50,951 nucleotides of DNA from Rickettsiales bacterium (GTDB lineage Bacteria > Pseudomonadota > Alphaproteobacteria > Rickettsiales > JABIRX01), in contig JAYOLW010000008.1 in the NCBI GenBank assembly GCA_038120515.1, positions 15,908 to 66,858 on the forward strand, given 5' to 3'. Position numbers and translations under genes: made by a program. The stretch's first letter is position 1; every line of letters begins with the position of its first letter. The notes beneath the pieces are model-generated. The model was not told where the DNA came from. It did no database searches and worked only from the letters and a program-made list of their open reading frames with translations. Of this stretch, positions 4,531-48,063 are shown in pieces.

Positions 4531-4540
4531 TAATTTTAAT

Positions 4541-5550: not shown

Positions 5551-6009
5551 TTAATTAGTCCTTTCTATATAATATTTATATGCATCAGCAAAACCATTCA
5601 AAGAAACATTTGTTTTTAATTGGTTTGTTACATCTATAAGTAATTTTTGTCCTTTTGACATCTGTACTGATAACGATTTTCTGTCTATCTGCTTAAAAAA
5701 TGATGAAATACCAGTATTCATTGAAGACTCAACTGGATCATGATTATCAACAGTTAAAACTACACCATCACTAAGCAAAAGTTCATTATGAGAAAAAGCT
5801 AAATAATATTTAGTAAAAATTATTGCACCACCACCAAGATCATCTTCAAATTGAGTACCCAGAAAACAATCACCTTTTAAATCAGTTGAGTTTTGCAATT
5901 TACATGAAACTAACCATTCACCAAAAGCTTTATTATTTTCAACATAAGCATAGGATTTACTTAGTAACAAAACAAAAATAACAGCAATTTTAATTAAACA
6001 ATTAGTCAT
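5551..6009 (-). CDS. Secreted invasion-associated locus B (IalB)-like protein
   Basis: Signal peptide ending SYA; FGEWLVSC...C near the N-terminus; C-terminal M-x-KG...VSLNGFADAY typical of the IalB family. Confidence 0.65.
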   Translation of the reverse strand: MTNCLIKIAVIFVLLLSKSYAYVENNKAFGEWLVSCKLQNSTDLKGDCFLGTQFEDDLGGGAIIFTKYYLAFSHNELLLSDGVVLTVDNHDPVESSMNTGISSFFKQIDRKSLSVQMSKGQKLLIDVTNQLKTNVSLNGFADAYKYYIERTN

Positions 6010-7969
6010 TTAATACCTCACTTATTTGATTAGCAATATTTGAAACAGTCAAACCAAAGTGATCATAAACATATTCAGCTTCAGCAGATATACCAAAAGT
6101 TTCAACACCAAAAAACTTACCCTTGCGACCAATAATTTTATACCAACTCATAGATATTCCAGCCTCAATAGCAAATATCGGTACATCTTTACCTAATAAA
6201 GCTTCTTTATATTCATCAGATTGTTGCTCAAATAACTCAACACAAGGCATCGAAACCAATCGAATCTTTTTGTCCTTCAATTCGTTGCAAACTTTATCTG
6301 CCAAACCAAGCTCAGAACCTGTAGCTATTATAATTGCATCTGGTTTTGAGTGATCCCTAATAACATAGCCACCTTTCTTAACCTGATTTTCAGTCGAATA
6401 ATCTCTTTCGGTAAAATCGGTTTTTTGCCTTGTAAGACAAATTAAACTTGGACCAGTTTTGTTTTCAAGCGCACATTGCCAAGATTCAAGAGTTTCAACT
6501 ATATCACATGGTCTAAAAACATTTAAATTTGGAATTGCTCTAAGTGATGCAATATGCTCAATTGGCTGATGTGTAGGACCATCAGAACCAAGACCTATTG
6601 AATCATGAGTCATAATGTAAATAACCTGTTGTTGCATCAATGCTGACAATCTAATAGCAGGACGACAATAATCAGTAAAAACCAAGAATGTTCCACCAAA
6701 AGGAATCATACCACCATGAAGTGTCATGCCATTCATTATTGCAGACATTCCAAATTCTCTAATACCATAATAAATATAATTACCTAATGCATCATCTGGT
6801 GTAATAGGTTTCATATTTGAAGATTTAGTATTATTAGAGCCTGTAAGATCAGCAGAACCACCAACTAGATTTGGAATCTTGTCACTTAAAAACTCAATAA
6901 CTTTACCAGAAGCTTGTCTTGTCGCCATAACTGGCTTGTCAGCAAATAATGATTTTTTAAAAGTTACTAACTCCTCTTGTATCTCATTATAAAAATTATT
7001 ATCGATATATTTAGTTAAGCTTTTACCCTCTGGATTGTTTTGAAATTCTTTATTCCATCTATAATATTCAGGTAAGTTTCTGTCAATTATTGAACGCCAT
7101 CTATCAAGATCCTCAGAAGAAACAAAAAACTCTTTCTCACTAATACCTAATTTTTCTTTAGTTTTTAAAACTTCATCAGCACCTAAGGGAGCACCGTGAG
7201 ATGCCGAAGTTCCAGCCTTATTTGGTGAACCAAACGCTATTTGAGTTTTGCAAGCAATTAATGTTGGTTTATCTGAAAGCTTCGCCTTGGTAATGGCATT
7301 ATCAATTTGATGAAAATCATGACCATCAACAGACATTACATTCCAATTAGATGACTCGAATCTTTTAAGTTGATCATCGGTACATGAAATATCTACAGAT
7401 CCATCAATAGTAATACCATTATCATCAAATAAAATAATTAACTTATTTAATTTATGATGACCAGCAAATGAAATAGCTTCATGAGAAATACCTTCCATCA
7501 AACAACCATCACCAACAATAGCATAAGTATGATGATTAATTAAACCTTTTCCAAATTTCGCAGCAAAAATTTTCTCTGCTAGCGCCATACCAACTGCATT
7601 AGCAAAACCTTGACCAAGAGGTCCAGTAGTAGTTTCAACACCTTTTAACAATTCTACTTCAGGATGACCAGCAGTTTTAGAATGAAGTTGTCTAAAATTT
7701 TTAATATCATCAAGAGTTATATCTTTATAGCCAGTTAGATATAACAAAGAATATATAAGCATAGAACCATGACCTGTAGACAAAACAAATCGATCACGAT
7801 CAAACCAATCAGGGTCTTTAGGATTAAATTTTAAATGATTATGGAACAAAACAGTTGCAACATCAGCCATTCCCATAGGCATACCTGGATGACCAGAAGC
7901 AGCTTTCTCAACAGCATCAATTGTTAAACCTCTAATGTTATTGGCAAGCGATTTTAAATTTAAAGACAC
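6002..7969 (-). CDS. tkt: Transketolase (GTG start)
   Basis: SGHPGMPMG, GHGSML, TTGPLGQG, GDGCLMEG and THDSIGLGSDGPTHQP. Confidence 0.98.
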   Translation of the reverse strand: MSLNLKSLANNIRGLTIDAVEKAASGHPGMPMGMADVATVLFHNHLKFNPKDPDWFDRDRFVLSTGHGSMLIYSLLYLTGYKDITLDDIKNFRQLHSKTAGHPEVELLKGVETTTGPLGQGFANAVGMALAEKIFAAKFGKGLINHHTYAIVGDGCLMEGISHEAISFAGHHKLNKLIILFDDNGITIDGSVDISCTDDQLKRFESSNWNVMSVDGHDFHQIDNAITKAKLSDKPTLIACKTQIAFGSPNKAGTSASHGAPLGADEVLKTKEKLGISEKEFFVSSEDLDRWRSIIDRNLPEYYRWNKEFQNNPEGKSLTKYIDNNFYNEIQEELVTFKKSLFADKPVMATRQASGKVIEFLSDKIPNLVGGSADLTGSNNTKSSNMKPITPDDALGNYIYYGIREFGMSAIMNGMTLHGGMIPFGGTFLVFTDYCRPAIRLSALMQQQVIYIMTHDSIGLGSDGPTHQPIEHIASLRAIPNLNVFRPCDIVETLESWQCALENKTGPSLICLTRQKTDFTERDYSTENQVKKGGYVIRDHSKPDAIIIATGSELGLADKVCNELKDKKIRLVSMPCVELFEQQSDEYKEALLGKDVPIFAIEAGISMSWYKIIGRKGKFFGVETFGISAEAEYVYDHFGLTVSNIANQISEVLND

Positions 7970-8130
7970 CTAAAATATGAAAAAATTTTGTAAAAAAGTG
8001 GTGATTGGTATAACAATGTTCAAAAAAAAGTCAATTTTCCTTTTTTTAAATTTTAGCAAAAAATTTTAAAGATAAAATTCCTAGATTTTTGAAATTTTTT
8101 TCCTATAAATGCCATGTTTTATAAGATTCA

Positions 8131-9042
8131 ATGGAAATTTATTTACCAATTGCTGATATTCCCATTAATATTTTTTCACTTCTGTTTATTGGCCTAACAG
8201 GTGGAATATTATCTGGCGTTTTTGGAATTGGTGGAGGTTTTATAGCTACTCCATTATTAATATTTCTTGGTGTTACACCACCAGTTGCCGTTGCATCATC
8301 AGCAAATCAAATAATAGCTTCATCATTTTCTGCATTTACATCCCATTACAAAAAAAAGAATATTGATTTTCACATGGGCACTATATTTATTTTAGGTGGA
8401 TTAGCCGGTTCATCTGTTGGCGTATGGTTATTCAGCTATTTAAAACAATATGGCCAAATCGATTTAGTCATTTCACTTTGCTATATTGTAATACTTGGCT
8501 TTATTGGTATATCTATGGCAGTTGAAAGCTTTTCAAACTTTACCAAAACAAACAAAAATCATGACTCAAAATTTTCAAAAAACAAACAAGCCTTTTTTGA
8601 TAAATTACCATATAAAATTTATTTCGAAAAATCAGAACTTGAGATAAGCATTTTAGTTCCAGTCTTAACAAGCTTTTTCTCTGGAATTCTGGTCTCACTA
8701 ATGGGAATTGGCGGCGGTTTTTTAATTGTTCCAGCATTAATTTATATAATCGGCATGCCGGCATCAATTGTTATTGGCACATCATTATTTCAAGTTATAT
8801 TCATTACTGCAAATGTTACATTTTTACATGCGGTCACTACTCATTCAGTTGATATAGTACTTGCAACAATTTTGTTCAGTGCATCAGTAATTGGGGCACA
8901 ACTTGGCATTCGTATTGGCTCAGTCATAAAAGCTGAAAAACTAAGGTTATTTCTTGCTTTAATAATTTTAGCTGTTGTTTCAAAATTAGTTATGGGATTT
9001 GTAATTGAACCATCCAATCCTTTTTCAACATCCATGTATTAA
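8131..9042 (+). CDS. TauE/SafE (sulfite exporter-like) membrane protein
   Basis: MEIYLPIA start, two repeated GIGGGF motifs, multiple TM helices; conserved alphaproteobacterial pairing with the next gene. Confidence 0.9.
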   Translation: MEIYLPIADIPINIFSLLFIGLTGGILSGVFGIGGGFIATPLLIFLGVTPPVAVASSANQIIASSFSAFTSHYKKKNIDFHMGTIFILGGLAGSSVGVWLFSYLKQYGQIDLVISLCYIVILGFIGISMAVESFSNFTKTNKNHDSKFSKNKQAFFDKLPYKIYFEKSELEISILVPVLTSFFSGILVSLMGIGGGFLIVPALIYIIGMPASIVIGTSLFQVIFITANVTFLHAVTTHSVDIVLATILFSASVIGAQLGIRIGSVIKAEKLRLFLALIILAVVSKLVMGFVIEPSNPFSTSMY

Positions 9043-9046
9043 AAAA

Positions 9047-9805
9047 ATGATAAAAACCACCAATTTAATACATAGCCTTAAATATATTTTACTAATATTT
9101 TGGTTTTTTGGACAATCAGCTTTTGCAAATCAAGCTATATTTACAGCAATTTCTGAAGACAAAATAGATATATCCGCAAATTTCAAAGGCAAAAACATCT
9201 TATTATTCGGGGCCAAAGATGTTGCTGGACAAATATTTATTGTGGTCAGAGGACCTGAAAAAACATTTACCACCAGAAAAAAAGAAAAAATATTTGGTTT
9301 TTGGGTTGAGAGAAAATTTATTGAATTTACCAACCTACCCAATTTTTATCAAATTAAAAGCAATGACAGCATCGAAACAATAGGTAATGAGAATTTACTA
9401 AAAAATTTAGAAATTGGACTTGAAAATCTTTCATATCAATATGGTGGTAACGCATCAATTGATCAAACTAACCAATATCGTAACGCCTTAATGGAGTCGC
9501 AATTTAAGAACAAACTATTTTCGCAGAATTTTGGCCCTATAACTTATCTTAATAACACTTTCTTCAAGACTGAGATTTTCTTCCCAAAAACTATCCAAGA
9601 AGGACTCTATACCATTGAAACATATTTAATTGATAACGATAAAATCAAAGCCCTACAAGTTCATAGAGTGCATGCTCGCAAAGTTGGCTTTGAATCTTTT
9701 ATTCACAAACTCGCAATCGAGAACTCAGTTATATATGGATTAATAGCAATTTTCTTAGCTATATTCTTTGGATGGTTTTCTAGTCAAATATTCTGGAAAC
9801 CTTAA
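9047..9805 (+). CDS. TIGR02186-like conserved alphaproteobacterial membrane-anchored protein
   Basis: I-x-I-xx-NF-x-G-xx-ILLFGA, VVRGP, RKKEKIFGFWV, G-x-Y and a C-terminal TM. ATG at 9047 preferred over the TTG at 9005, which lies inside the upstream gene. Confidence 0.82.
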   Translation: MIKTTNLIHSLKYILLIFWFFGQSAFANQAIFTAISEDKIDISANFKGKNILLFGAKDVAGQIFIVVRGPEKTFTTRKKEKIFGFWVERKFIEFTNLPNFYQIKSNDSIETIGNENLLKNLEIGLENLSYQYGGNASIDQTNQYRNALMESQFKNKLFSQNFGPITYLNNTFFKTEIFFPKTIQEGLYTIETYLIDNDKIKALQVHRVHARKVGFESFIHKLAIENSVIYGLIAIFLAIFFGWFSSQIFWKP

Positions 9806-37956: not shown

Positions 37957-39483
37957 TCAATTATCAAATCTTGCCAAATCATCTAAATTTGCATATCTAA
38001 CAATTTGATCAAAACTTTCATTAAACCCTTTATATTTTGTTAAAACTGAATCAATAAACTTATAATCTGTAGTAATAGACTGACTATCAAATCCTGATTC
38101 GAGATTATTATAAGTAGGTAAGTTAGAATCTTTGACACCACTTTTAGCATAAGCACCATTTCCAGAAGGTCCAAAAGAAATTATGGCAAATATACCTTCA
38201 TTCTCAATTAGAGAACTATCAACATCCTTTATCGACATATATCCAGAATCAGAAACACTAACACCAAGATAAGCATAACCATTTTTCCATTTATTATTCA
38301 AATAGTCATGCATCGCTGAAAGCTCTCCTGATGTAAAAGCTTTTTCATATACCACAACCTCATAAATATTGCCTAAAACATAGCTTGAAGCAGCATTTAC
38401 CGCCCCACCTGCAGACCCAGCCTCAGAACCAACGCCAATATAACCATATCTAACCATTCCAGATCCCAACCCACCAGATAGCAAAGAGGTAGTGTTTGAT
38501 GCTTTTAAAACACCATCTAAATAAATACTCTTATTTTGCTCATCTTTACTATATCTTACGGTGTAGATATGAATATTTCCATCTCGATATCCAGATGAAC
38601 TATAGTATAAATATAGATTTGGATCTCCAGTTTTAAACTCAAATCTATTATTTGAATCCATTGCAGATCGCCAATATTCACCACCATCATATGACACAAA
38701 TATCTGCTTATTACCAGATGATGTCTTATAAACTACAAAAGCAGTTAAATATGGTATTTGATGATATCCATTATAATATTTTGTATTTATAAATAATCTA
38801 TCATTTGAACCATCAAATTTAATAGCAGGATAATTGCCATCAAGAATATATTGTGGCCTATATGATGAAGTATTTTGGATAAAATCATAATTATTATCAC
38901 CCTTATCCTCAATTCTCGAGACAAAATTAGAGGCATCTTTTGTTATTAATGATGAATCATTAGCATCAAGCCAAAATAACAAATTTGAATAATTTGATGG
39001 AGTGCTATAAAAAGCCTGATTAGCTGTTACTTGAGCATCATAAATCACTTTAGGAATTACAATTGAGAGCTTATTCCCCCAAGCATCAAGCATATATTCA
39101 TAAGAAAGTCCAAGCTCATTAGTAGGAACAGCACCAACATAAAAATATCCATCACTACTAATAATAGAGATATCGCATTCACTATTATTGCCATTAATAT
39201 CCAGACTGTCACCTGCATCCCTTAATTTAATGTTTAAAGATGGATCAGCAGGACATGGGAAAAATCCATTTTTTTTATAATAAGCCAAAAGAGCTGTTTC
39301 AATTAATTCAATTTTATTTTCAGTTGCTAAATATTTATCCTCATTTTCACTAAATTCAGAAAGATAAATGCCTCCAACTACAAAAATTGAACCTGCTGTT
39401 AAAATAATTGAAAGCTCAACTAAAGAAAAAGCCCTTTTAAGCCTAGATGATATAAAAAAATTCAATAATTTTACAAATCTCAA
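37957..39483 (-). CDS. Large type IV pilin-like protein with inserted LamG/ConA-like domain
   Basis: Class III signal KRA|FSLVELSII; PCP and DAWG motifs; insert LLFWLDAND...PAIKFDGSND...GNIYEVVVY...YLNNKW; C-terminal IISFGPSGNGAY. Confidence 0.82.
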   Translation of the reverse strand: MRFVKLLNFFISSRLKRAFSLVELSIILTAGSIFVVGGIYLSEFSENEDKYLATENKIELIETALLAYYKKNGFFPCPADPSLNIKLRDAGDSLDINGNNSECDISIISSDGYFYVGAVPTNELGLSYEYMLDAWGNKLSIVIPKVIYDAQVTANQAFYSTPSNYSNLLFWLDANDSSLITKDASNFVSRIEDKGDNNYDFIQNTSSYRPQYILDGNYPAIKFDGSNDRLFINTKYYNGYHQIPYLTAFVVYKTSSGNKQIFVSYDGGEYWRSAMDSNNRFEFKTGDPNLYLYYSSSGYRDGNIHIYTVRYSKDEQNKSIYLDGVLKASNTTSLLSGGLGSGMVRYGYIGVGSEAGSAGGAVNAASSYVLGNIYEVVVYEKAFTSGELSAMHDYLNNKWKNGYAYLGVSVSDSGYMSIKDVDSSLIENEGIFAIISFGPSGNGAYAKSGVKDSNLPTYNNLESGFDSQSITTDYKFIDSVLTKYKGFNESFDQIVRYANLDDLARFDN

Positions 39484-40751
39484 AATAAACTTCCTAATAA
39501 AATACTGTAATCAGTACTATTGTTATAGACAGAACATGCAACCGAAATATCTTCACAATCAAAATTTAATTTATTAGAAACAAAACCATTATCAAGCTTA
39601 AACTCCTTTTCAACTAATTCACCCTTAACAATTAACTTTCCATTTAAGTTATAACTATAATAACGATTAGATAAATTACTTAAGATCATAAAATCAGGAA
39701 ATTTAAAATTGTCATTATTCGAAATCTCAATATCCTGTGAAATTAACAAATTTGGCTGATCAAAATACTTATTAACAAGGCTTAAATCTGCTTTATTCAA
39801 AAAAACAAGATTGTTAACTCTAAAACTATCAGAAGCAGAAATATTTAATTTTTTATCTGAAAATGATATTGGGATAGCTAATACATTTGAAAAATTCACC
39901 GCTAAAATTAGACTATTATCCTCAAAATCATATTCAAAGCCAATATAATTTGAGTAACCACAATTAGCTGATATTGAATCAAAAATCTCAATTCCAATTA
40001 AAAAATCAAATTTGCATTCACCATTAATATATTCAAACTCTATTTTTATATCCTCAATTGCGAAACTTATTTTATCGTTGTTATCAAAACTGAAATCCAT
40101 TAATAAATAATCATGATCATTATTAAGAGCTATATTTAAATTAGTTCCAGTAACCGCTTTTTTATTATCCATTTCAGAATACTGAAAATCATTATTTAAA
40201 TTAATGATTTTTTCACCACTACCTTTCTCAATCAGCCATTGTGAACTTGTAACAGCCTCCGCATCAGGAACGAACCAAATAATAGATTTTAATTTATGCT
40301 GAATAAATTCTATAGAAACAAATTGATTATCAAGACTAACTAACTCTTTCCTAACAAAATAAAAATATTTACTACCAAATTCATCAGTTTGAAAATCATA
40401 ATTTAACTTTAAATTTTTGATTGGAATAGCTCCAAGGTAATATTCATCACTTAGTGACTTTTTCAAACCATAATATGGCATACATTCATTAAAATACCTA
40501 GCTTCTTTATAACTGATTTCTTGATAAAGATTTTCCTCAGGAAAAGATGGACAGGGCAGGTATTTATTTTGAAACCAGAATGCCAAAAGATGGTTGTTTA
40601 CAATTTGCATTTCTGCTTCAGTTTTAAGTATCTTTTGCTTTCTGGAAAGCCCAGATTCATAAACACAGAAACCAATAACTACAGAAGAAATCAACAGATT
40701 TAACAATGCTACTTCAATAAGCGAAAAGGCCCGATTTAGGACCAAAGACAC
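39480..40751 (-). CDS. Large divergent type IV pilin-like protein with beta-rich insert
   Basis: NRA|FSLIEVAL, YLPCP, YLGAIP and DEFG motifs; overlaps the next gene by 4 nt. Confidence 0.75.
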   Translation of the reverse strand: MSLVLNRAFSLIEVALLNLLISSVVIGFCVYESGLSRKQKILKTEAEMQIVNNHLLAFWFQNKYLPCPSFPEENLYQEISYKEARYFNECMPYYGLKKSLSDEYYLGAIPIKNLKLNYDFQTDEFGSKYFYFVRKELVSLDNQFVSIEFIQHKLKSIIWFVPDAEAVTSSQWLIEKGSGEKIINLNNDFQYSEMDNKKAVTGTNLNIALNNDHDYLLMDFSFDNNDKISFAIEDIKIEFEYINGECKFDFLIGIEIFDSISANCGYSNYIGFEYDFEDNSLILAVNFSNVLAIPISFSDKKLNISASDSFRVNNLVFLNKADLSLVNKYFDQPNLLISQDIEISNNDNFKFPDFMILSNLSNRYYSYNLNGKLIVKGELVEKEFKLDNGFVSNKLNFDCEDISVACSVYNNSTDYSILLGSLF

Positions 40752-40754
40752 TAT

Positions 40755-41573
40755 CTAAAAACACATATCATTAAACTTCTCAACACCTGTTGAACAATTA
40801 CATTCTGAACTTGGATATCTTTTTATTGATTCAAGATCATCTAAATCATTCATCAAATGCCATTTACTCTTAAAACGCAAAATATCATCCATCAAAGCTG
40901 GCCGAAAATAATTATATACAAACTCATTATCACTATCAGAATTTTCAATTTCATCAACTGAAGCATTTGCAGTACTAACCTGACCTCCTGATTTAGTATA
41001 AGCCCCATAACCATTCTTGCCATGAGAAATAATAACATATGCATTTTTTTGATATTCATAAACCGCTAAGGCAGAATTAGGTTTATTATATACCACAGGT
41101 AAATTATCTTCATTTGCATAAAAACCAGAATTTATATCAACACCATTTTTGCAAATTAAATCACTTGAAACATAATATGTTAAACGCCTATCAAATCCAT
41201 CATAGATATATTCAGCAGGAAGACCTAATGTTATAGCTGGAATAGAACCTTTATAGCCAACTACTAGCCCCCCAACCTCATAAGCCTCAGCGTTAATACA
41301 AGTTTCAGTAACACTTGAAGAATCACAAGAGTCACCATCCTCACCATAACCAGCAGAATCTGAAGAAATAGTTTGCCCAGAAGGACAAGGCAACCCCCTA
41401 TTTTCATTTAAATATCTAAGTAGTGACTTTTCAATCACATCTAGACGTTCAAAAGTTGTTTTTAAACGATTAACTTTCAAAAAGCTGTCTAATACAGCAG
41501 TAAAAGTAAAAGCAATAAATCCCATTATCACAAGTACAATTGATAATTCTAGTAAACTATAGGCTTTTTTCAT
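40755..41573 (-). CDS. Type IV pilin-like protein (272 aa)
   Basis: KKA|YSLLELSIVLVI, GLPCP, GSIPAITLGL, IISHGKNGYGAY and a Cys-rich C-terminus. Confidence 0.85.
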   Translation of the reverse strand: MKKAYSLLELSIVLVIMGFIAFTFTAVLDSFLKVNRLKTTFERLDVIEKSLLRYLNENRGLPCPSGQTISSDSAGYGEDGDSCDSSSVTETCINAEAYEVGGLVVGYKGSIPAITLGLPAEYIYDGFDRRLTYYVSSDLICKNGVDINSGFYANEDNLPVVYNKPNSALAVYEYQKNAYVIISHGKNGYGAYTKSGGQVSTANASVDEIENSDSDNEFVYNYFRPALMDDILRFKSKWHLMNDLDDLESIKRYPSSECNCSTGVEKFNDMCF

Positions 41574-42386
41574 CTATCTAAAAATACAAGAAGCATCAGA
41601 AATTTTCACAACATCATTGCAAGAAGGTGACAAAGATTGAAGTGTAGCACATTGAGCAGATGAATAAATAGTACCACCTGAAAGCTCTGCGAAAAATTGA
41701 AGTAATGTTTTATTTGCGACAATATCATCATAGCCAGAAGATCTTGGCATATCCTGAATATTTGCAATATCAAGCGATGCTAAAATGTTATTTAGCTCAT
41801 ATGTACCAGCATTTGCAGAGTCTAACAAAGCTCCATTTTTACTATATGCTCCATAACCATTCTTGCCATAACTGATAATATAAAACAAAGATGATGTATA
41901 ATCCTCCACGGCAATATCAACATTATTTGTTTTAAAAATATCTTTATTGACCAAATAAAGTAACCTCCGACCCCAACTATCAAAAGCATAATCATCTGAA
42001 AGACCAAGCGTTCTAACAGGAATCATACCATAATAATAATTATCAAGAGTAGATGTATCTGTAGTATACAAGCCCAAACAATTACCACCAGCATCCTGAT
42101 AAACGGAATTGCTAATGCCAAAATCAGAGCTAGTAATCGCAGCATTTATATCAGCTGGACAAGGTAATGCGTTTCCAGACAATAAAGAACTATCTTTAGA
42201 ATATCTAATAATGTTTGCTATTAACGCCTGCTCAATTTTTGTAATTTTAGCTTTGGTATCATCATAAAAATTAGCATCATATCTAATATCAGTAATCATT
42301 ATTGTCATCATGACAATTAAACTTAAAATGGAAATAGCAATGGCCTGTTCAAGCAAAGTATATGCTCTTACGAAATTCTTCATCAT
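41574..42386 (-). CDS. Type IV pilin-like protein (270 aa)
   Basis: VRA|YTLLEQAI, ALPCPAD, GMIPVRTLGL, DSWG, IISYGKNGYGAY and a Cys-rich C-terminus. Confidence 0.83.
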   Translation of the reverse strand: MMKNFVRAYTLLEQAIAISILSLIVMMTIMITDIRYDANFYDDTKAKITKIEQALIANIIRYSKDSSLLSGNALPCPADINAAITSSDFGISNSVYQDAGGNCLGLYTTDTSTLDNYYYGMIPVRTLGLSDDYAFDSWGRRLLYLVNKDIFKTNNVDIAVEDYTSSLFYIISYGKNGYGAYSKNGALLDSANAGTYELNNILASLDIANIQDMPRSSGYDDIVANKTLLQFFAELSGGTIYSSAQCATLQSLSPSCNDVVKISDASCIFR

Positions 42387-42522
42387 AAAGACAAATGTAA
42401 TAATTTAAAAATTGTGCAAAATTTGGCCTGTTCCACCTTTTAATAAATTTTAGCGTAATTATATCAAGCAAAATAATTTTTATTGATTATCTTTATTTTA
42501 AAAATTCAACATAAGAATCATC

Positions 42523-43245
42523 ATGATTATTCAATCTGCAATTTTCGTTTTTCTATTAGGTCTTATATTTGGTAGTTTTGCAACGGCTTTAAGTTACAGA
42601 ATCCCTCTTAACGAAGACTTTATCAAAACTCGTTCAAAATGCATTCATTGTGATCACATTCTCGGTTTTTTTCAGCTATTTCCTTTATTCTCTTTTATTT
42701 GGCAAAAAGGCAAATGTAAATTTTGTCAAAAAAAAATTTCATACAGTTATCCTGTAATCGAAACATTATGCGGTTTTATATTTTTAATTATTTTCTTTAA
42801 GAACGGCCTTAATATTCAATCTCTTTCAATTTATCTTACTTTCTTTACTTTATTTGTTGCCTCTCTTATTGATATTAAAACTTATGAAGTACCGATTAAA
42901 ATTCAGTTAATTTTATTATCACTTGCCTGTATCTTTGCCATACAAAACTCACTTAGTTATAAAGAATTCTTAATTAATCCATTTATTATATATAGTTGCG
43001 GACTTGTTTTAAAATATAGTTTTTATTTTGTTAGAAACAAAGATGGATTAGGTTTAGCGGATATAAACCTAGCATTTATTATTACAATTTTTCTTGGTAT
43101 TGAAAATTTTGTTTATTTTATGTTTCTGGCTGGAACATTTGGTGTAATTTTTGGTTTAATTTGGCAAAAAATATTTAAACAAGATCTTTTTCCTTTTTTT
43201 CCATCATTGTCGATTGCTTTTTTAATTTCTTATGGAATATTGTGA
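42523..43245 (+). CDS. pilD: Prepilin peptidase / N-methyltransferase (A24A)
   Basis: FGSF...YRIP, RSKCIHC...GKCKFC zinc domain, catalytic aspartates in SLIDIK and GLGLADI, FPFFPSL. Confidence 0.92.
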   Translation: MIIQSAIFVFLLGLIFGSFATALSYRIPLNEDFIKTRSKCIHCDHILGFFQLFPLFSFIWQKGKCKFCQKKISYSYPVIETLCGFIFLIIFFKNGLNIQSLSIYLTFFTLFVASLIDIKTYEVPIKIQLILLSLACIFAIQNSLSYKEFLINPFIIYSCGLVLKYSFYFVRNKDGLGLADINLAFIITIFLGIENFVYFMFLAGTFGVIFGLIWQKIFKQDLFPFFPSLSIAFLISYGIL

Positions 43246-43311
43246 TAGAAATTTATTATTTCCAAGCCGGTTAGCACTACATATTAACAATTAATATTTT
43301 AATAAATTTTC

Positions 43312-44973
43312 ATGAAGTTTTTTATTTCAATCACTATTATCTTAGCACTTACCGGTTGCAAGGCATCCTCAAAACTTGAGAAAGATTTTCCTTACGATTC
43401 ATCAACTAATCTTACAAGACAAGATTATAAACAAAATTTAATGAATCCAAGAAAAGAAAATAATTTAGAATCCAGCAATAACTTAACTAAATCAGATCTA
43501 GCCTTCGAACAAATGCTTTTGGCACCTCCAAAACCAAAGCTTGCTAATGATAAATTAATCACTTTGTCTGTTACTGAAGATGTTCCAATCAAAGATGTTA
43601 TTATTGAACTTGCAAGAATTGCTGGAGTGGAAACTCAGATCAGTCCTGATATTTCTGGAAGTGTAATATTAATAGTTAAAGACAGGCCTTTTCAAGAAGT
43701 TATCGAAAGTATAGCATCTTTAACTAACCTAAAAATCACTATTAATAACGGTATTCTTAAAGTAACCAAAGATATTCCATATATAGTCAATTATGATGTT
43801 AAGTTTTTAAATTTTATTCGAAATAATTCATCATCAATTGCAATTTCTACTTCTACTGGTGCTGATGAAGTATCAACTGGAGGTACAACCAACATTTCTT
43901 CAACTACTACAGGAGATCTTTGGAAAGCAATAGCATTAAACATAAGTAGAATAATCGGGCTAAATAGTGAAGAAGACTCTGATTCTGATGAACTATCACC
44001 TTTTGTCACAATAAACAGACAAGCAGGAATAGTAACTGTTAAAACTTATGACAAAGAGCATAAAATTGTTAATGAATATTTACAAGAAGTTAAACAAAGC
44101 ACATCAGCGCAAGTTCTAATTGAAGCTAAAATAATTGAAGTAATTTTAACTGATGAGTTTAGAACTGGTATTGATTGGTCAGGCATTTCGGATATTTCTA
44201 ATGCAGATTTTACAGATTTCTCATCTGGAGACTCAACCTCTTTTACTAACCCTTTTGGTGTCATTTTCTCACATAATGAAACTGGAGGCAAAAATTCATT
44301 TTCTGCAACACTCACTATGCTTGAAGAATTTGGTACTACCAGAACATTATCTAGCCCAAGAGTAACCGCTGTTAATAATCAACAAGCATTATTAAGCTTT
44401 TCTGAAAATGAAGTGTATTTTAATGTAACTTATGATCAAACTACCACTACTGGCTCTACTGGTGACAATTCTGGAAGCACAACTAGTATTACAAGCGAAG
44501 TACAAACTACCCCTATTGGTATTATCTTGAGCATACTGCCTTCCATTGATTTAAAAAAGAATGAAATAATTATGAATGTAAGGCCAACTATTACCACTTA
44601 CCTAAGCTCAGTTGAGGACCCTGCTGTTACTTTAACCGCCGCCTCACTTAATGACGACTCAGGTATTACCAGCTCAGTTCCGCAAGTAGCTGTTAGAGAA
44701 ATGGATACTGTTGTTAAAATGAAAGATGGAGAAGCTATTGTTATGGGTGGGTTGATTGAACAAAAAGATCATAATATCGAAAATGGTATACCCATCTTAA
44801 AAGACATACCTTTGTTTGGCTATTTATTTAAATCAAAAGCTAAAGAATTACAGGTAACAGAAACTGTTATTTTACTTAGAGCTTCAATTATTACGCCTAA
44901 CTCTTCAGTAGATCAATCTGATAAAGATTTTGCCAAAAAATTCACTACTGATCCAAGACCTTTCTTTTTTTAA
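43312..44973 (+). CDS. Lipoprotein secretin, MshL-like architecture
   Basis: Lipobox LALTGC, N0/STN-like domain, Ser/Thr-rich N-domain insert, QVLIEAKIIEV, GIDW, LSSPRV, MGGLI and GIPILKDIPLFGYLF. Confidence 0.9.
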   Translation: MKFFISITIILALTGCKASSKLEKDFPYDSSTNLTRQDYKQNLMNPRKENNLESSNNLTKSDLAFEQMLLAPPKPKLANDKLITLSVTEDVPIKDVIIELARIAGVETQISPDISGSVILIVKDRPFQEVIESIASLTNLKITINNGILKVTKDIPYIVNYDVKFLNFIRNNSSSIAISTSTGADEVSTGGTTNISSTTTGDLWKAIALNISRIIGLNSEEDSDSDELSPFVTINRQAGIVTVKTYDKEHKIVNEYLQEVKQSTSAQVLIEAKIIEVILTDEFRTGIDWSGISDISNADFTDFSSGDSTSFTNPFGVIFSHNETGGKNSFSATLTMLEEFGTTRTLSSPRVTAVNNQQALLSFSENEVYFNVTYDQTTTTGSTGDNSGSTTSITSEVQTTPIGIILSILPSIDLKKNEIIMNVRPTITTYLSSVEDPAVTLTAASLNDDSGITSSVPQVAVREMDTVVKMKDGEAIVMGGLIEQKDHNIENGIPILKDIPLFGYLFKSKAKELQVTETVILLRASIITPNSSVDQSDKDFAKKFTTDPRPFFF

Positions 44974-44990
44974 TAAAACAAGTTTAAAAA

Positions 44991-45755
44991 ATGCGTCCAA
45001 TTATTCGTTATATTATTCTTACTGCTACAAGAGATTGGTTATTTATAGGATTAAGTTTACTTATTTTAATAGCTGGTTTTGTATCTTTATTTTTAGGTTC
45101 TGCCGCAATCACAGAACAACCTCTAAATCAAATTGCCTATTTTGCCGGATCTTCAAGATTAATCATCGTAATTGGTATGATTATGTTTATATGCTTTCAT
45201 ATAAGAAGATCTTTTGATAATAGAGAGATTGAATATAATTTATCCAGACCAATATCACGCAATCAATTTGTGATTGCCTATTTCTTAGGTTTTGCAAGCT
45301 TAGCACTTTTTGCAACAACTCCCGTTATTCTAATTTTAACAATATTTTTTCAAGTAAAATTACCAATAATTATATTATGGAGTTTGGCACTATTTTTTGA
45401 GCTTTTAATAATGACATCATTTGCAATTCTTGCTTCCTTAATCCTAAGAAGTGCTGTATCAGCAGTGATGGGGTGTTTATGCTTTTATTTTATTTCTAGA
45501 ATTATCGGTTTTGCGGTTTCTTCAATCATCCTGCCAAAGCAATTACTACAATTAAATCTAACAGGAATAATGGAATCCTCTTTAAAATTAATTTCAATTT
45601 TTCTGCCAAGATTAGATCTCTTTGCTAAAAGTAAATGGTTAGTTTATCAATCTGTTGACCTTTCTGTGTTTTTCTTAATTTCGATCCAATCTGCAATATA
45701 TATATCGTTAATATTACTGATGTCTTTGTTAGATTTTAAAAAACGTCAATTTTAA
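44991..45755 (+). CDS. ABC-2-type permease (PilI-like)
   Basis: About 6 TM helices, LSRPISRNQFVIAYFLG signature, FLPRLDLF and a C-terminal DFKKRQF. Confidence 0.75.
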   Translation: MRPIIRYIILTATRDWLFIGLSLLILIAGFVSLFLGSAAITEQPLNQIAYFAGSSRLIIVIGMIMFICFHIRRSFDNREIEYNLSRPISRNQFVIAYFLGFASLALFATTPVILILTIFFQVKLPIIILWSLALFFELLIMTSFAILASLILRSAVSAVMGCLCFYFISRIIGFAVSSIILPKQLLQLNLTGIMESSLKLISIFLPRLDLFAKSKWLVYQSVDLSVFFLISIQSAIYISLILLMSLLDFKKRQF

Positions 45756-45757
45756 AC

Positions 45758-46504
45758 ATGGTATTTATAAAAGATAAATATATTCATATTTTACTTATTG
45801 TGACATTATTGCTTCAAATCTTCATTTGGAACCATATTAAAGCAATAAAACCGGATATGATTATTGTTCCAAATGTTCCTAACAAGTTATCAACTCAAAT
45901 AATTGCATTAGGAGACACTCAATTTTATTTTCGCTATTTAGCTTTTGTTATTCAAAATGCTGGTGATAGCTGGGGCAGATTCACAGCGCTCAAAGACTAT
46001 AATTACGAAAAATTATTAGAATGGTTTTTGTTGCTTGATGATCTGGATTCTAGATCAAATTTTGTACCATCTCTTGCCAGTTATTATTACGCTCAAACTC
46101 AAAATAAAGCTGATACAATTTACATCATTCAATATTTAAGACAGCATGCTAATAAAGATCTTAGAACTAAATGGTGGTGGCTTGTTCAGGCTGTATACAT
46201 CTCCAACCATATCTTAAAAGACAAAGAACTGGCACTTGATATAGCACTTGAATTAAACCAAGTACCTTATGATGTAGACATGCCACTTTGGGCTAGGCAA
46301 ATGCCAGCCTTTATTCATGAGCAACTGGGCGAAAAGGCTGCATCGAAAGAAATAATTGTTAATATTCTTGAGAATATTGATAATTTATCTGATGGTGAAT
46401 TAAATTTTATGGAATATTTTATACGTGACCGTCTTAAAGATGATGAATTTCGCTTTGAGATTATTGAAGAATTAAGAAAAAGAAATAAGCAAAATACAAA
46501 TTAA
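45758..46504 (+). CDS. Membrane-anchored helical (TPR-like) protein, possibly PilG-like
   Basis: N-terminal TM, ALGD...RYL...IQ, LDDLDSR and WWW motif, all-helical character; 2 nt after the permease. Confidence 0.55.
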   Translation: MVFIKDKYIHILLIVTLLLQIFIWNHIKAIKPDMIIVPNVPNKLSTQIIALGDTQFYFRYLAFVIQNAGDSWGRFTALKDYNYEKLLEWFLLLDDLDSRSNFVPSLASYYYAQTQNKADTIYIIQYLRQHANKDLRTKWWWLVQAVYISNHILKDKELALDIALELNQVPYDVDMPLWARQMPAFIHEQLGEKAASKEIIVNILENIDNLSDGELNFMEYFIRDRLKDDEFRFEIIEELRKRNKQNTN

Positions 46505-46506: not shown

Positions 46507-48063
46507 ATGACTGATCTAAATATTAACTCATGGCCATTTCAAGAAGCTGAAAGAATTTTAAAACTCATAAATTATAAAACACCGGCAAAAGGATTTGTAT
46601 TATTTGAAACTGGTTATGGCCCTTCTGGACTTCCTCACATCGGTACCTTTGGTGAAGTTGCTAGAACCTCAATGATCATAAAAGCATTTAATATTTTAGC
46701 CCCTGAAATCCCGACAAAACTTATTTGCTTTTCTGATGATATGGACGGACTAAGAAAAGTACCATCGAATTTACCAAATCAAGAAATACTCCAAAACAGC
46801 TTAGGACTTCCGCTAACAATTGTTCCAGATCCATACGGAACTGAAGCAAGCTTTGGCGCCAATATGAATAAAAGGCTTGTTGCTTTTTTAAACAAATTTA
46901 ATTTTGAATTCGAATTTGCTAGTAGTAGTGAATATTATAAATCAGGTCGTTTTAATAAAACACTTGAGAAAATGCTGAAACATTACAATCAGATCAATGA
47001 TTTAATTAGAAACACTTTAGGCGCTGAAAGACGAGAAGAATACTCAATATTCATGCCAATTTGTCCAACTTCAGGCAAAGTTTTGGAGAAAGGTGTTATT
47101 TCTGTAAATCCTGAAAAAAACACTATTAAATTCTATGATAGTGAAGATAAGGTTCAAGAATGTTATGTAGGAGATGGTAATTGTAAGCTGCAATGGAAAG
47201 CTGATTTTGGTATGAGATGGGCCGCTCTTGAAGTTAATTACGAAATGTACGGAAAAGATCTAATAAGCTCTGCCGATATTGCCGGTAAACTATGCAAGAT
47301 AATTGGCGCTAAGGCTCCAGTTAATTTTCATTATGAGCTTTTCTTAGATGATGCTGGTCAGAAAATTTCCAAATCAAAAGGTAATGGTCTTACTATGGAT
47401 GAATGGTTAAGATATGCTCCGCATGAAAGCCTTAGTTACTATATGTATTTAAAACCAAAATCTGCAAAAAGATTATTTTTTGATGTTATTCCAAAAGCAA
47501 CCGATGAATATCTAACTTTTTTAAACAAATATAATTCATTAGATAACTTAGAAGACAAATATAAAAGCCCAATTTTTTATATTTTTGGTAATAAAGCACC
47601 TGATAATAACACTGGAAATATTTCATTTTCTTTACTGCTTAATTTGGCTTCAGCATGTAACCCAGAAAGTAACGAAATTTTATGGGGATTTATTGCAAAA
47701 TATGACGCCAATCTTAACAAAGAAAATGCACCATTACTTGATAATCTTACTCAATATGCAATTAATTATTATCAAGATTTTATCAGACCATATAAAGAAT
47801 ATAGATCTGCAAGTGAAATAGAATTAACTGCTATAAAAGATCTCAAGGACGAACTTCAGAAAATTCCTGAAAATTCAAATTCCAGTGAAATTCAAACTCT
47901 TGTTTACGATATTGGTAAGAAATATGAATTTGACCTTAAGGAGTGGTTTGGAGCATTATATCAAATTTTACTAGGTCAAAAACAAGGTCCAAGAATGGGT
48001 AGCTTTATCGAGATTTTTGGAATTGATAATATGATTAAACTAATTGAAGAAAAAATATCTTAA
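46507..48063 (+). CDS. lysS: Class I lysyl-tRNA synthetase
   Basis: SWPFQEA, FETGYGPSGLPHIGT, DDMDGLRKVP, KISKSKGNG and GPRMGSF. Confidence 0.97.
   Translation: MTDLNINSWPFQEAERILKLINYKTPAKGFVLFETGYGPSGLPHIGTFGEVARTSMIIKAFNILAPEIPTKLICFSDDMDGLRKVPSNLPNQEILQNSLGLPLTIVPDPYGTEASFGANMNKRLVAFLNKFNFEFEFASSSEYYKSGRFNKTLEKMLKHYNQINDLIRNTLGAERREEYSIFMPICPTSGKVLEKGVISVNPEKNTIKFYDSEDKVQECYVGDGNCKLQWKADFGMRWAALEVNYEMYGKDLISSADIAGKLCKIIGAKAPVNFHYELFLDDAGQKISKSKGNGLTMDEWLRYAPHESLSYYMYLKPKSAKRLFFDVIPKATDEYLTFLNKYNSLDNLEDKYKSPIFYIFGNKAPDNNTGNISFSLLLNLASACNPESNEILWGFIAKYDANLNKENAPLLDNLTQYAINYYQDFIRPYKEYRSASEIELTAIKDLKDELQKIPENSNSSEIQTLVYDIGKKYEFDLKEWFGALYQILLGQKQGPRMGSFIEIFGIDNMIKLIEEKIS

What the first reader, a model, noticed from the sequence alone, without database searches (positions are those of the whole stretch)
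37957..46504. Hybrid type IV filament system: MshL-like liposecretin plus PilI/PilG-like accessory pair and four oversized pilins
Seen: two divergent gene runs around a 136-nt spacer. Four tightly coupled pilin-like genes (270-508 aa) face pilD, a lipoprotein secretin, an ABC-2 permease and a TM-plus-helical protein. Established: model alphaproteobacteria mostly use Tad/Flp pili; lipidated secretins with Ser/Thr-rich N-domains typify MSHA-type systems; a PilG/PilH/PilI ABC module accompanies pili in Myxococcus and Bdellovibrio. Inference: this combination fits none of T2SS, canonical T4aP, Tad or MSHA cleanly. It may be a little-studied filament subtype for host or prey attachment. The ABC ATPase, motor ATPases, platform protein and a small major pilin are not in this window.
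Basis: partly seen in the sequence, partly recalled or inferred. Interest (0 to 1): 0.78.

Follow-up and report, generated by a model that had tools for sequence, protein, structure and literature searches.

The report
Type IV pilus half-locus with ABC module
These nine genes are one half of a scattered, retractable type IV pilus machine in a small estuarine Rickettsiales-like bacterium, and its outer-membrane pore gene is tied to two parts of a little-understood ABC transporter resembling one that Myxococcus needs to make pili.

Summary
Window 37957-46504 carries four tightly packed prepilin-like genes (270, 272, 423, 508 aa). They diverge across a 136-nt spacer from pilD, a lipoprotein secretin, an ABC-2-fold permease and a membrane-anchored TPR-like protein (p248).

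The missing parts are elsewhere in the 1.5-Mb genome:
- Contig C18: a pilin-like gene, a PilB/GspE-like ATPase, a PilC/GspF-like platform, three unnamed genes shaped like PilMN/PilO/PilP, and an orphan ABC ATPase.
- Contig C1: a TPR protein and PilT.
- The genome has one secretin, one platform, no Tad ATPase and no second GspE-type ATPase.

Comparative evidence:
- Secretin-permease-p248 is adjacent in 69 of 80 species-level loci.
- The ABC ATPase lies within 5 kb of pilC in 21 of 31 relatives.
- Module and pilus genes are present or missing together across 41 relatives.
- The permease-p248 pair also sits in pilus loci of other Pseudomonadota classes.

The secretin scores best on the MshL model but below its cut-off. 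Only PilT and PilD pass curated cut-offs.

Type IV pili in environmental Rickettsiales are already in print. The secretin-linked ABC module was not in the papers I searched, but this scan has noted it before on other DNA. I could not test homology to Myxococcus PilG/PilI.

Extras: 15 of 18 prepilins have Ala at -1, PilD has an altered motif, and a second pilin family is expanded.

The parts
37957..39483 (-). Prepilin-like gene, 508 aa: a modular pilin with a concanavalin-A-like (Laminin_G_3) module at residues 247-388
   Evidence: ORF. Leader ...LKRA|FSLVEL. Pfam Laminin_G_3 scores 29.7 bits against a cut-off of 27.6. It belongs to the window pilin family.
39480..40751 (-). Prepilin-like gene, 423 aa
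   Evidence: ORF. Leader ...NRA|FSLIEV. It shares the LPCP and G.IP..L.L motifs of the family. No Pfam or NCBIfam hit.
40755..41573 (-). Prepilin-like gene, 272 aa
   Evidence: Leader MKKA|YSLLEL. Weak N_methyl / TIGR02532 hits, 15.6 bits against a cut-off of 16.3. Family signature LPCP...G.IP..TLGL...D.[WF][GD]RR...ISHGKNGYGA...DDI. Homologues lie next to pilD in L018, L021, L023 and others.
41574..42386 (-). Prepilin-like gene, 270 aa; first gene of the minus-strand run
   Evidence: Leader ...FVRA|YTLLEQ. Same family signature.
42387..42522 (.). 136-nt divergent intergenic spacer
   Evidence: Coordinates. The consensus promoter scan found 3 sites in 42250-42650, no more than in shuffles (mean 3.2), so no promoter is shown.
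42523..43245 (+). Prepilin peptidase PilD (A24 family) with an altered second catalytic motif, GLADINL
   Evidence: Pfam A24_N_bact 91.4 bits and Peptidase_A24 46.9 bits, both above cut-off. Motif comparison across 36 PilD sequences.
43312..44973 (+). Lipoprotein secretin, MshL-like; the only secretin in the genome
   Evidence: Pfam Secretin 117 bits. NCBIfam MshL 222.2 bits (cut-off 250.2), GspD 117, PilQ 86. Lipobox LALTGC. Single PF00263 match in the genome.
44991..45755 (+). ABC-2 (type V) permease, the membrane half of the pilus-linked ABC module
   Evidence: AlphaFold model pLDDT 83. Foldseek best match NosY, TM 0.70-0.73, E 9e-5; then PmtCD, ABCG and Wzm. The homologue L129:10392-11165 passes the Pfam ABC2_membrane_2 cut-off and matches this protein at 7.5e-22. 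It lies directly upstream of p248 in 76 of 80 loci.
45758..46504 (+). p248: membrane-anchored TPR-like helical-repeat protein of an unnamed family, presumed accessory subunit of the ABC module
   Evidence: No Pfam, NCBIfam or PDB sequence match. Model pLDDT 86: TM helix 2-29 plus helical repeats. Weak TPR fold matches. 562 representative clusters at E<=1e-3; every source name shown is 'hypothetical protein'.

Best explanation
The region is the pilin, peptidase and secretin half of a single, dispersed, retractile type IV pilus machine. The host has a small genome and resembles uncultured Rickettsiales found in estuarine and aquatic samples.

Proposed workings:
1. PilD cleaves the leaders of the four window pilins and of about 14 scattered 210-270-aa pilins.
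2. The PilB-like ATPase, the platform and a PilMN/PilO/PilP-like set on contig C18 polymerise the pilins.
3. PilT on contig C1 retracts the fibre.
4. The lipidated MshL-like secretin lets the fibre through the outer membrane.
5. The four window pilins are most likely low-abundance or tip subunits. The 508-aa one would present a concanavalin-A-like lectin module for adhesion.

The permease and p248, together with the orphan ABC ATPase at the end of the C18 operon, form a three-part ABC-2 machine that belongs to the pilus system. It has the same make-up as Myxococcus PilH (ATPase), PilI (permease) and PilG (accessory).

My preferred mechanism is inference. The ATPase drives the permease dimer, and p248's probably periplasmic TPR-like domain passes that work to a pilus component on the outer face of the inner membrane. 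The most likely target is the handling or extraction of the unusually large pilins. The alternative target is assembly of the secretin.

Shown: gene identities, folds, genome-wide inventory, conserved linkage and co-distribution.
Inferred: physical assembly of the three ABC parts, p248 topology, the substrate, and the tip or adhesin role.
For: Inventory:
- One PilB/GspE-like ATPase with a platform on C18, PilT above its cut-off (426.6 bits against 319.1), and VirB11 as the only other PF00437 protein.
- One secretin and one platform.
- The C18 operon runs: pilin-like gene, ATPase, platform, 540-, 207- and 220-aa unnamed proteins, ABC ATPase.
- The 540-aa protein resembles clusters in which 26% of members carry PilM_2 (Atlas score 0.95; a lead only).

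ABC module:
- The permease has an ABC-2 fold.
- It is the only ABC2_membrane_2-like ORF in the genome.
- No permease was found beside the C18 ABC ATPase among the ORFs scanned.

Linkage:
- Permease to p248: 76 of 80 loci, median gap 2 nt.
- Secretin to permease to p248: 69 of 80 loci, median secretin-permease gap 16 nt.
- pilD was also detected in 28 of those 69 (single-query BLAST, so an undercount).
- The ABC ATPase orthologue lies within 5 kb of pilC in 21 of 31 relatives that have it. In the other 10 the two genes are on different contigs.

Co-distribution over 41 relatives, own genome included:
- p248 in 34, pilC in 34, the scattered pilin family in 34, the ABC ATPase in 31.
- Six genomes lack all four.

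Beyond the order:
- p248 family found in 15 of 301 sampled Alphaproteobacteria and 53 of 401 sampled Pseudomonadota.
- In 4 of 4 loci inspected from other classes, the permease-p248 pair is adjacent and has pilin-like genes nearby. A PilB-like ATPase and a platform were found in 2 of the 4.
- One of those ATPases passes the MshE c-di-GMP motif model, 57.1 bits against 38.

Published anchor:
- pilG, pilH and pilI mutants lack pili (PMC3724824, passages).

Lectin-module pilins are documented in S. sanguinis PilC (PMC9934059, passages).
Against: - No direct comparison with Myxococcus PilG/PilI was possible. NCBIfam gave no hit for either window protein at E<=0.1.
- The permease's own Pfam score is below cut-off, 13.2 bits against 27.2.
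- p248's fold matches are weak (best E 0.027, TM below 0.45).
- p248 topology rests on a small positive-inside bias: 2.6 against 1.8 K+R over 40 sequences.
- In 11 of 80 loci the secretin-permease-p248 triple was not found (one is a contig end). G032 keeps permease and p248 without a detectable pilC or pilin at my thresholds.
- In other classes the pair sits beside pilins rather than the secretin, so the neighbour does not identify the substrate.
- PilM, PilN, PilO and PilP families were not detected by Pfam in the C18 proteins.
- The four window pilins all keep Glu5 and look like paralogues of one family. They are therefore not the canonical four-member tip set.
- Relatives are kin, so the counts overstate independent support.
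Confidence: 0.75

Rival explanations
1. The ABC module serves the secretin rather than the pilins. It would act as a dedicated extraction, pilotin-like or assembly aid for the lipidated secretin, with p248's TPR-like domain playing the part that TPR lipoproteins (PilF/PilW, Tgl) play for PilQ.
For: The permease and p248 directly follow the secretin gene in 69 of 80 loci. All 8 secretins checked have a lipobox cysteine. p248 is TPR-like. That PilF/PilW and Tgl are TPR-lipoprotein pilotins is recalled, not from a call.
Against: The genome has its own LolC/E above cut-off, 414.9 bits against 362.45. In 4 of 4 loci from other classes the pair sits among pilin genes, and in L128 about 8 kb from the secretin. 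In Myxococcus pilGHI is in the pilA operon and is linked in print to pilin export. A separate TPR protein sits next to pilT.
Confidence: 0.2
2. The machine is a type II secretion-like system that secretes proteins through a short pseudopilus, not a surface pilus.
For: The ATPase scores the same on the GspE and PilB models (484 bits each). The platform scores higher on GspF (278) than on PilC (221). The closest solved secretins are GspD. [quoted passage not shown]
Against: PilT is present above cut-off, and in relatives it sits beside the motor operon with a second PilT/PilU-like gene. GspG scores 12.7 bits against 88.85; GspD, GspE and GspF cut-offs are not met. There are 13-14 paralogous 210-270-aa pilins, many ending in a cysteine pair, and a lectin-module pilin.
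Confidence: 0.08
3. The permease and p248 are an unrelated transporter that merely sits next to the secretin; the ABC ATPase on C18 is likewise unrelated.
For: No family annotation ties them to pili. lysS is just as tightly coupled downstream in this family.
Against: Adjacency is kept across an order and recurs in pilus loci of other classes. Presence and absence track the pilus genes. The ATPase sits in the motor operon in 21 of 31 relatives. lysS linkage is limited to the closest relatives.
Confidence: 0.04

Closest known systems
Myxococcus xanthus PilG/PilH/PilI (MXAN_5782-5780; TC 3.A.1.144.5)
   Same: A three-part ABC system (accessory or 'receptor' protein, ATPase, permease of about 250 aa) encoded among type IV pilus genes and needed for piliation (papers read as passages). 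Here there is an ABC ATPase, an ABC-2-fold permease of 254 aa and a 248-aa accessory protein, all in pilus operons.
   Different: Here the genes are split: the ATPase ends the motor operon, while the permease and accessory protein follow the secretin. In Myxococcus they form a pilA-pilG-pilH-pilI operon. Earlier notes of this scan assert it for similar loci, which I did not check.
MSHA pilus system of Vibrio (MshL secretin, MshE ATPase)
   Same: The secretin scores best on the MshL model in 8 of 8 sequences, about twice the GspD or PilQ score. The 540-aa protein has the size and layout of a fused PilM-PilN-type protein (that MshI is such a fusion is recalled).
   Different: The MshL cut-off is not met (193-224 bits against 250.2). 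The ATPase's MshE-type c-di-GMP motif is below cut-off (26.7 against 38). PilT is part of the system. That the Vibrio msh locus has no ABC genes is recalled, not tested.
Canonical type IVa pilus (Pseudomonas / Myxococcus PilABCDMNOPQT)
   Same: PilD, a PilB-like ATPase, the platform, PilT retraction ATPase (above cut-off), a secretin and a TPR protein next to pilT.
   Different: PilQ, PilB and PilC cut-offs are not met. No PilM/N/O/P Pfam matches. The secretin is itself a lipoprotein. Pilins are 210-508 aa, mostly with Ala rather than Gly at -1.
NosDFY, the ABC-2 machine that supports copper-centre assembly of N2O reductase (PDB 7o0y, 7qba)
   Same: Best structural match of the permease (TM 0.70-0.73). 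That NosY works with a periplasmic partner is recalled and is used only as a model for how p248 might be driven.
   Different: No sequence relationship was shown (16-18% identity in the structural alignment). NosD is a beta-helix protein, not a TPR-like one (recalled). The biological context differs.
Streptococcus sanguinis PilC, a modular minor pilin with a ConA-like lectin module (PMC9934059)
   Same: A pilin moiety with a grafted concanavalin-A-like domain, proposed to sit at the tip and bind glycans (passages). The 508-aa window pilin has Laminin_G_3 above cut-off.
   Different: Different organism type (monoderm) and different pilin family. The lectin activity of the window protein is untested.
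Type IV pili reported in environmental and basal Rickettsiales (Schon et al. 2022; Castelli et al. 2024)
   Same: Same group of organisms and the same apparatus, reported as present and likely ancestral, with adhesion proposed (passages).
   Different: The passages I read give presence or absence only. They mention no ABC module, secretin type or pilin features. I did not see the supplementary figures (Supplementary Fig. 23 of PMC10847448), which may list components.

Membership tests
MshL secretin (NCBIfam TIGR02519, equivalog) | Score at or above the curated cut-off of 250.2 bits | tested here: not met
   Window 222.2 bits; seven relatives 193.4-224.4 bits. It is the best model in 8 of 8.
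PilQ (TIGR02515) and GspD (TIGR02517) secretins | Score at or above cut-off (284.35 and 351.35 bits) | tested here: not met
   PilQ 86.1 bits, GspD 117 bits.
Secretin superfamily (Pfam PF00263) | C-terminal secretin domain above the gathering score | tested here: met
   117 bits against 27.5. It is the only such gene in the genome.
Liposecretin | Signal peptide ending in a lipobox cysteine | tested here: met
   LALTG|C in the window. A cysteine in lipobox-like context in 7 of 7 relatives read by eye. No lipoprotein predictor was run.
Prepilin peptidase (Pfam PF06750 + PF01478) | Both domains above the gathering score; two catalytic Asp motifs | tested here: met
   91.4 and 46.9 bits. Asp is kept in both motifs, but the second reads GLADINL rather than G.GD[VI]K.
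Type IV pilins (class III signal peptide) | Short basic leader, Gly at -1, Phe/Tyr at +1, Glu at +5, about 20 hydrophobic residues | tested here: inconclusive
   All features are present except Gly(-1), which is Ala in all four window genes. N_methyl models stay just below cut-off, 14.4 and 15.6 bits. The family profile matches solved pilin N-helices at E 4.9e-8.
Type IVa pilus system | PilT-family retraction ATPase | tested here: met
   TIGR01420 scores 426.6 bits against 319.1; contig C1.
Type IVa pilus system | PilB and PilC equivalogs; PilM/N/O/P families | tested here: not met
   PilB 484 bits against 675.65; PilC 221 against 700. No Pfam PilM/N/O/P hit in the C18 proteins or their orthologues. 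Atlas lead to PilM_2 only.
Type II secretion system | GspD, GspE, GspF, GspG equivalogs | tested here: not met
   117 against 351; 484 against 630; 278 against 424; 12.7 against 88.85 bits.
Tad/Flp pilus | TadA/CpaF-type ATPase | tested here: not met
   Only three PF00437 matches in the genome: PilB-like, PilT and VirB11.
MSHA system | MshE-type N-terminal c-di-GMP-binding motif (NF053729) | tested here: not met
   26.7 bits against 38 in the window genome's ATPase. It is met (57.1 bits) in the L128 locus of another class that also carries the permease-p248 pair.
ABC-2 / type V ABC permease | Six-helix ABC-2 fold; Pfam ABC2_membrane family above cut-off | tested here: met
   Fold: NosY TM 0.70-0.73, E 9e-5. 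The protein's own Pfam score is below cut-off (13.2 against 27.2). 4 of 12 orthologues hit ABC2_membrane_2, best E 0.0023. The homologue L129 passes at 29.0 bits.
PilGHI-type pilus ABC module | ATPase + ABC-2 permease + accessory protein encoded within pilus gene clusters | tested here: met
PilGHI-type pilus ABC module | Sequence homology to M. xanthus PilG, PilH and PilI | not testable with these tools
   No Myxococcus sequence or handle could be reached. My one genome-contig scan returned only close relatives. The listed hits of the two protein searches (the best 120 of each) were all unnamed or 'hypothetical protein'.
PilGHI-type pilus ABC module | Requirement for piliation | not testable with these tools
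   Needs genetics.
Modular pilin with lectin module | Pilin N-terminus plus a concanavalin-A-like domain | tested here: met
   Laminin_G_3 scores 29.7 bits against 27.6 at residues 247-388 of the 508-aa protein. A similar C-terminal motif occurs in the 620-aa L023 pilin.

The most novel reading that the evidence does not exclude
The ABC ATPase, ABC-2 permease and TPR-like anchor form an overlooked, widely conserved fourth motor of a large MSH-like class of type IV pili. The class would span Alphaproteobacteria, Magnetococcales-like and Gammaproteobacteria-like lineages, with Myxococcus PilGHI as a distant member. The module would work like NosDFY, as an ATP-driven machine acting on the periplasmic face. 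Its job would be to extract or chaperone unusually large pilins, or to seat the liposecretin. In this genus, PilD has additionally shifted its specificity from Gly(-1) to Ala(-1) through the GxGDxK to GxADxN change next to the catalytic Asp.
Probability: 0.25. Interest if true: 0.75.

Novelty: new variant of a known kind. Interest (0 to 1): 0.52.

Why it matters
The role of PilG, PilH and PilI in Myxococcus has stayed vague since their description in 1998 (date taken from a reference list). The papers I read describe it only as pilin export or translocation.

If the same three-part module belongs to the pilus of many small-genome Alphaproteobacteria and of other Pseudomonadota, it stops being a myxobacterial oddity. 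It becomes a general accessory engine that can be studied by comparison and in simpler systems.

For Rickettsiales biology, the locus describes in detail the pilus that has been proposed to mediate attachment in early-branching, possibly extracellular members. That detail includes a lectin-bearing pilin and a large repertoire of pilin paralogues.

The near-complete switch to Ala at the prepilin cleavage site, together with an altered PilD motif, is a natural experiment on prepilin peptidase specificity.

Tried and rejected
The queue was full, and then the tool was declared unavailable. No interaction test exists.
Only the Foldseek PDB result is available.
- PDB sequence searches with the p248 and permease profiles gave nothing meaningful (best E 0.033 and 0.097).
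- NCBIfam gave no family for the permease, p248 or the 540-, 207-, 220- and 252-aa C18 proteins. Pfam gave none for the C18 proteins or their orthologues even at E<=1.
- Two large protein searches, with the p248 profile and with the profile of its homologues from other classes, listed only unnamed or 'hypothetical protein' entries. They gave no route to named PilG proteins.
- The genome-contig scan with the p248 profile returned only close relatives, so it yielded no Myxococcota or Bdellovibrionota handle.
- The Atlas search placed Bdellovibrionota TPR-protein clusters at 0.88-0.89, below the 0.9 line. I treat that as a lead only.
- No RNA holder was listed for the locus, and I laid no reads. 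The DNA is held by estuary, aquatic and seawater metagenome runs, one of which may be the source.
- The promoter scan of the spacer was no better than shuffles.
- A strict covariation of Ala(-1) pilins with the PilD GxAD motif was rejected. Ala(-1) pilins also occur beside GxGD PilDs in L029, L032, L040 and L045.
- Reading the four window pilins as the canonical GspH/I/J/K-like tip set was rejected. They are paralogues of one family and all keep Glu5.
- Paper searches that did not surface a description of a secretin-linked ABC module in Alphaproteobacteria. They cover open-access text only.

Full report
**What is in the window**

On the minus strand there are four genes of 270, 272, 423 and 508 aa: 41574-42386, 40755-41573, 39480-40751 and 37957-39483. 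Their junctions are 0 nt, 3 nt and a 4-nt overlap. A 136-nt spacer (42387-42522) follows. On the plus strand lie pilD (42523-43245), a secretin (43312-44973), a 254-aa membrane protein (44991-45755) and a 248-aa protein I call p248 (45758-46504). The gaps are 66, 17 and 2 nt, and lysS follows after 2 nt.

- PilD passes both Pfam A24 models, and the secretin passes Pfam Secretin.
- The secretin begins with a lipobox (LALTG|C).
- It scores best on NCBIfam MshL: 222.2 bits, below the 250.2 cut-off. That is about twice its GspD (117) and PilQ (86) scores.
- Seven orthologues from other families of the order behave the same way (193-224 bits). All have a lipobox-like cysteine.
- The closest solved secretins are only distantly similar: GspD at 49.6 bits, PilQ at 41.

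**The four pilin-like genes**

Each starts with a basic leader, then A|[FY][ST]L[LIV]E and a hydrophobic helix. This is a class III signal with Ala rather than Gly at -1. They form one family with a shared signature: LPCP, then G.[IV]P..[TE]L.L, then D.WGRR, ISHGKNG.GA and FDDI. The last three motifs are clearest in the 270- and 272-aa members. Homologues sit next to pilD in relatives.

The family profile matches solved pilins only over the N-terminal helix (Geobacter PilA-N, E 4.9e-8). The 508-aa member carries a Laminin_G_3 (concanavalin-A-like) domain above cut-off. That makes it a modular pilin of the kind described for Streptococcus sanguinis PilC, where the lectin module binds glycans (PMC9934059, passages). 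All four keep Glu5 and are paralogues, so I do not read them as the canonical four-member tip set.

**The rest of the machine**

The window is contig C8 of a 1.5-Mb, 38-contig genome with 97% completeness. Only three PF00437 ATPases exist:
- a 608-aa PilB/GspE-like protein on C18, scoring 484 bits on both models, below both cut-offs;
- PilT on C1, 426.6 bits, above its cut-off;
- VirB11 on C6.

The C18 operon reads: 252-aa pilin-like gene, ATPase, platform (GspF 278 bits, PilC 221, both below cut-off), 540-, 207- and 220-aa proteins with no family, then an ABC ATPase whose best models are GldA- and DrrA-like, then trpD.

The sequences give the three unnamed proteins these shapes:
- 540 aa: a large N-terminal domain, one hydrophobic helix, then about 140 residues.
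- 207 aa: N-terminal helix plus coiled coil.
- 220 aa: signal peptide plus a soluble domain.

These are the shapes of PilM-N (fused), PilO and PilP. Only an Atlas lead supports this, a cluster in which 26% of members carry PilM_2 (score 0.95). A TPR protein sits upstream of pilT.

The genome has one secretin and one platform. It is therefore a single type IV filament machine split over at least three places. There is no Tad ATPase and no second GspE-type ATPase.

**The ABC module**

- The 254-aa protein reaches only E 0.055 on Pfam ABC2_membrane_2. 4 of 12 orthologues hit that family, best E 0.0023.
- Its AlphaFold model (pLDDT 83) matches the ABC-2 permease NosY best (TM 0.70-0.73, E 9e-5). 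PmtCD, ABCG transporters and Wzm follow.
- A homologue from another class passes the Pfam cut-off (29.0 bits) and matches the window protein at 7.5e-22.
- It is the only ABC2_membrane_2-like ORF in the genome.
- No permease was found beside the C18 ABC ATPase among the ORFs scanned. The two orphans are natural partners, which is inference.
- p248 has no Pfam, NCBIfam or PDB sequence match. Its model (pLDDT 86) is an N-terminal transmembrane helix followed by helical repeats.
- Foldseek finds only weak TPR-type matches: consensus TPR, NlpI, MamA, BamD (best E 0.027).
- A slight positive-inside bias over 40 family members (2.6 against 1.8 K+R) suggests the repeat domain faces the periplasm. That is weak evidence.

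**Comparative evidence**

p248 is found in 34 of 41 genomes of the genus, family and order, own genome included.

| Test | Result |
|---|---|
| 8 distant loci: secretin-permease-p248 contiguous | 7 of 8 |
| 8 distant loci: pilD beside it | 5 of 8 |
| 80 species-level loci anchored on p248: permease directly upstream | 76 of 80 (median gap 2 nt) |
| 80 loci: secretin-permease-p248 triple intact | 69 of 80 |
| ABC ATPase orthologue (50-68% identity) within 5 kb of pilC | 21 of 31 relatives that have it |

- The 80 loci come from records titled mostly 'Rickettsiales bacterium' or 'Alphaproteobacteria bacterium' MAGs.
- Of the 11 loci without the triple, one is a contig end and two lack a detectable permease.
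- In the 10 relatives where the ATPase is not near pilC, the two genes lie on different contigs.
- In G015 and G021 the whole set (TPR, pilT, pilT/U, ABC ATPase, alignment genes, pilC, pilB) is one cluster.

Across the 41 genomes, pilC, p248 and the scattered pilin family are each present in 34. Six genomes (G012, G013, G020, G028, G034, G035) lack all of them and the ABC ATPase. The exceptions are G009 (84% complete, no p248) and G032 (permease and p248, but no pilC or pilin at my thresholds). Kin are not independent, so these counts describe the pattern rather than test it.

**Reach of the family**

- The p248 profile finds 562 representative clusters at E<=1e-3 among 1.84 billion proteins.
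- Every source name shown is 'hypothetical protein'.
- It occurs in 15 of 301 evenly sampled Alphaproteobacteria and 53 of 401 sampled Pseudomonadota, 45 of them outside the class.
- In 4 of 4 loci I inspected from those other classes, a permease homologue lies directly upstream of the p248 homologue, with pilin-like genes nearby. A PilB-like ATPase and a platform were found in two of the four (L128, L131).
- In L128 the ATPase passes the MshE-type c-di-GMP motif model (57.1 bits against 38).
- There the pair is next to pilins, not next to the secretin.

**Comparison with what is known**

M. xanthus pilG, pilH and pilI lie in the pilA operon. They are annotated as accessory factor, ATPase and permease of an ABC exporter, and are required for piliation (PMC3546991 and PMC3724824, passages). 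[quoted passage not shown]

The window's module has the same composition and the same kind of genomic company. I could not compare sequences, so membership in the PilGHI family is open, while 'works like PilGHI' is my working reading.

Type IV pili in basal and environmental Rickettsiales are already reported as present, likely ancestral and possibly adhesive (PMC9352585 and PMC10847448, passages). I did not see their supplementary component tables. My searches found no description of the secretin-linked ABC module.

This scan's earlier notes describe the same module on other genomes several times. I used them as leads. I re-derived the linkage independently and partly confirmed the claim that it extends to other classes.

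**Mechanism**

Shown: identities, folds, inventory, linkage.

Inferred: the ATPase, a permease dimer and p248 form one machine. p248's repeat domain is periplasmic. ATP hydrolysis is used, as I recall for NosDFY, to do work on the outer face of the inner membrane rather than to export a small solute.

The substrate is open. I favour pilin handling, given the Myxococcus phenotype, the pair's position among pilins in other classes and the unusually large pilins here. Secretin assembly is the alternative, supported by the adjacency in this order and the lipidated secretin. Against it, the genome has its own LolC/E.

**Side observations**

- 15 of 18 credible prepilins in the genome have Ala at -1, 2 have Gly, and the one upstream of pilB appears to have Gln.
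- More distant relatives mostly use Gly: 16 Gly against 10 Ala over the loci scanned.
- PilD's second catalytic motif is G[LM]ADINL in this genome and its three closest relatives. It is G.GD[VI]K in 26 of 36 sequences aligned.
- The association is not strict, because Ala(-1) pilins also occur beside G.GD PilDs in L029, L032, L040 and L045.
- A second pilin family of 210-270 aa has 13-14 paralogues here and 2-33 matches per genome in pilus-bearing relatives.

**Verdict**

This is a real, coherent and conserved feature: the pilin, peptidase and secretin half of a dispersed type IV pilus system with a PilGHI-like ABC module.

Noticed in passing
window 37957-42386 and genome-wide (C1, C2, C4, C17, C18, C21, C24, C28, C29): 15 of 18 credible prepilin-like ORFs have Ala rather than Gly at the -1 cleavage position. 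Two have Gly, and the gene upstream of pilB appears to have Gln. More distant relatives mostly use Gly.
   Followed up: partly
window 42523-43245 (PilD residues about 175-183): The second catalytic motif reads GLADINL here and in the three closest relatives (L025, L026, L027). It reads G.GD[VI]K in 26 of 36 aligned PilDs. L018 has GLADIKF and one Ala(-1) pilin. The link with Ala(-1) is suggestive but not strict.
   Followed up: partly
G000 contigs C1, C2, C4, C17, C18, C21, C24, C25, C28, C29: A second pilin family (mature 210-270 aa, many ending in a Cys pair) has 13-14 scattered paralogues in this 1.5-Mb genome. Pilus-bearing relatives have 2-33 matches per genome, and the seven relatives without the pilus genes have none.
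   Followed up: partly
L004 (G000:C18) 2097-9458: The motor operon ends with an orphan ABC ATPase. It contains 540-, 207- and 220-aa proteins with no family but PilMN/PilO/PilP-like shapes. A 252-aa pilin-like gene sits directly upstream of the ATPase, a position kept in the genus.
   Followed up: partly
L004 6855-8681 (PilB-like ATPase, residues about 57-108): Two tandem MshEN-like repeats are visible at the N-terminus, but the NCBIfam MshE c-di-GMP motif scores below cut-off (26.7 against 38). By eye the leading Arg of each repeat is replaced; the motif consensus is recalled.
   Followed up: no
window 46507-48063: A class I lysyl-tRNA synthetase gene starts 2 nt after p248. This tight coupling is kept only in the closest relatives (L025-L030, L032).
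   Followed up: no
L065 3817-5970: One relative has a 718-aa ORF that aligns to PilD and then continues into a Ser/Thr-rich stretch. By eye this stretch resembles the secretin's N-region; I did not test it. It may be a pilD-secretin read-through or fusion, or an ORF-calling artefact.
   Followed up: no
L006 (G000:C6) 5321-7644: VirB10 and VirB11 of a type IV secretion system are present (VirB11 585.7 bits). Read together with the record titles of relatives, this fits a Rickettsiales-type organism.
   Followed up: no
window 42387-46504: Near-identical DNA is held by estuary, aquatic and seawater metagenome runs from several studies. One run may be the source of the assembly. No RNA run is listed.
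   Followed up: no
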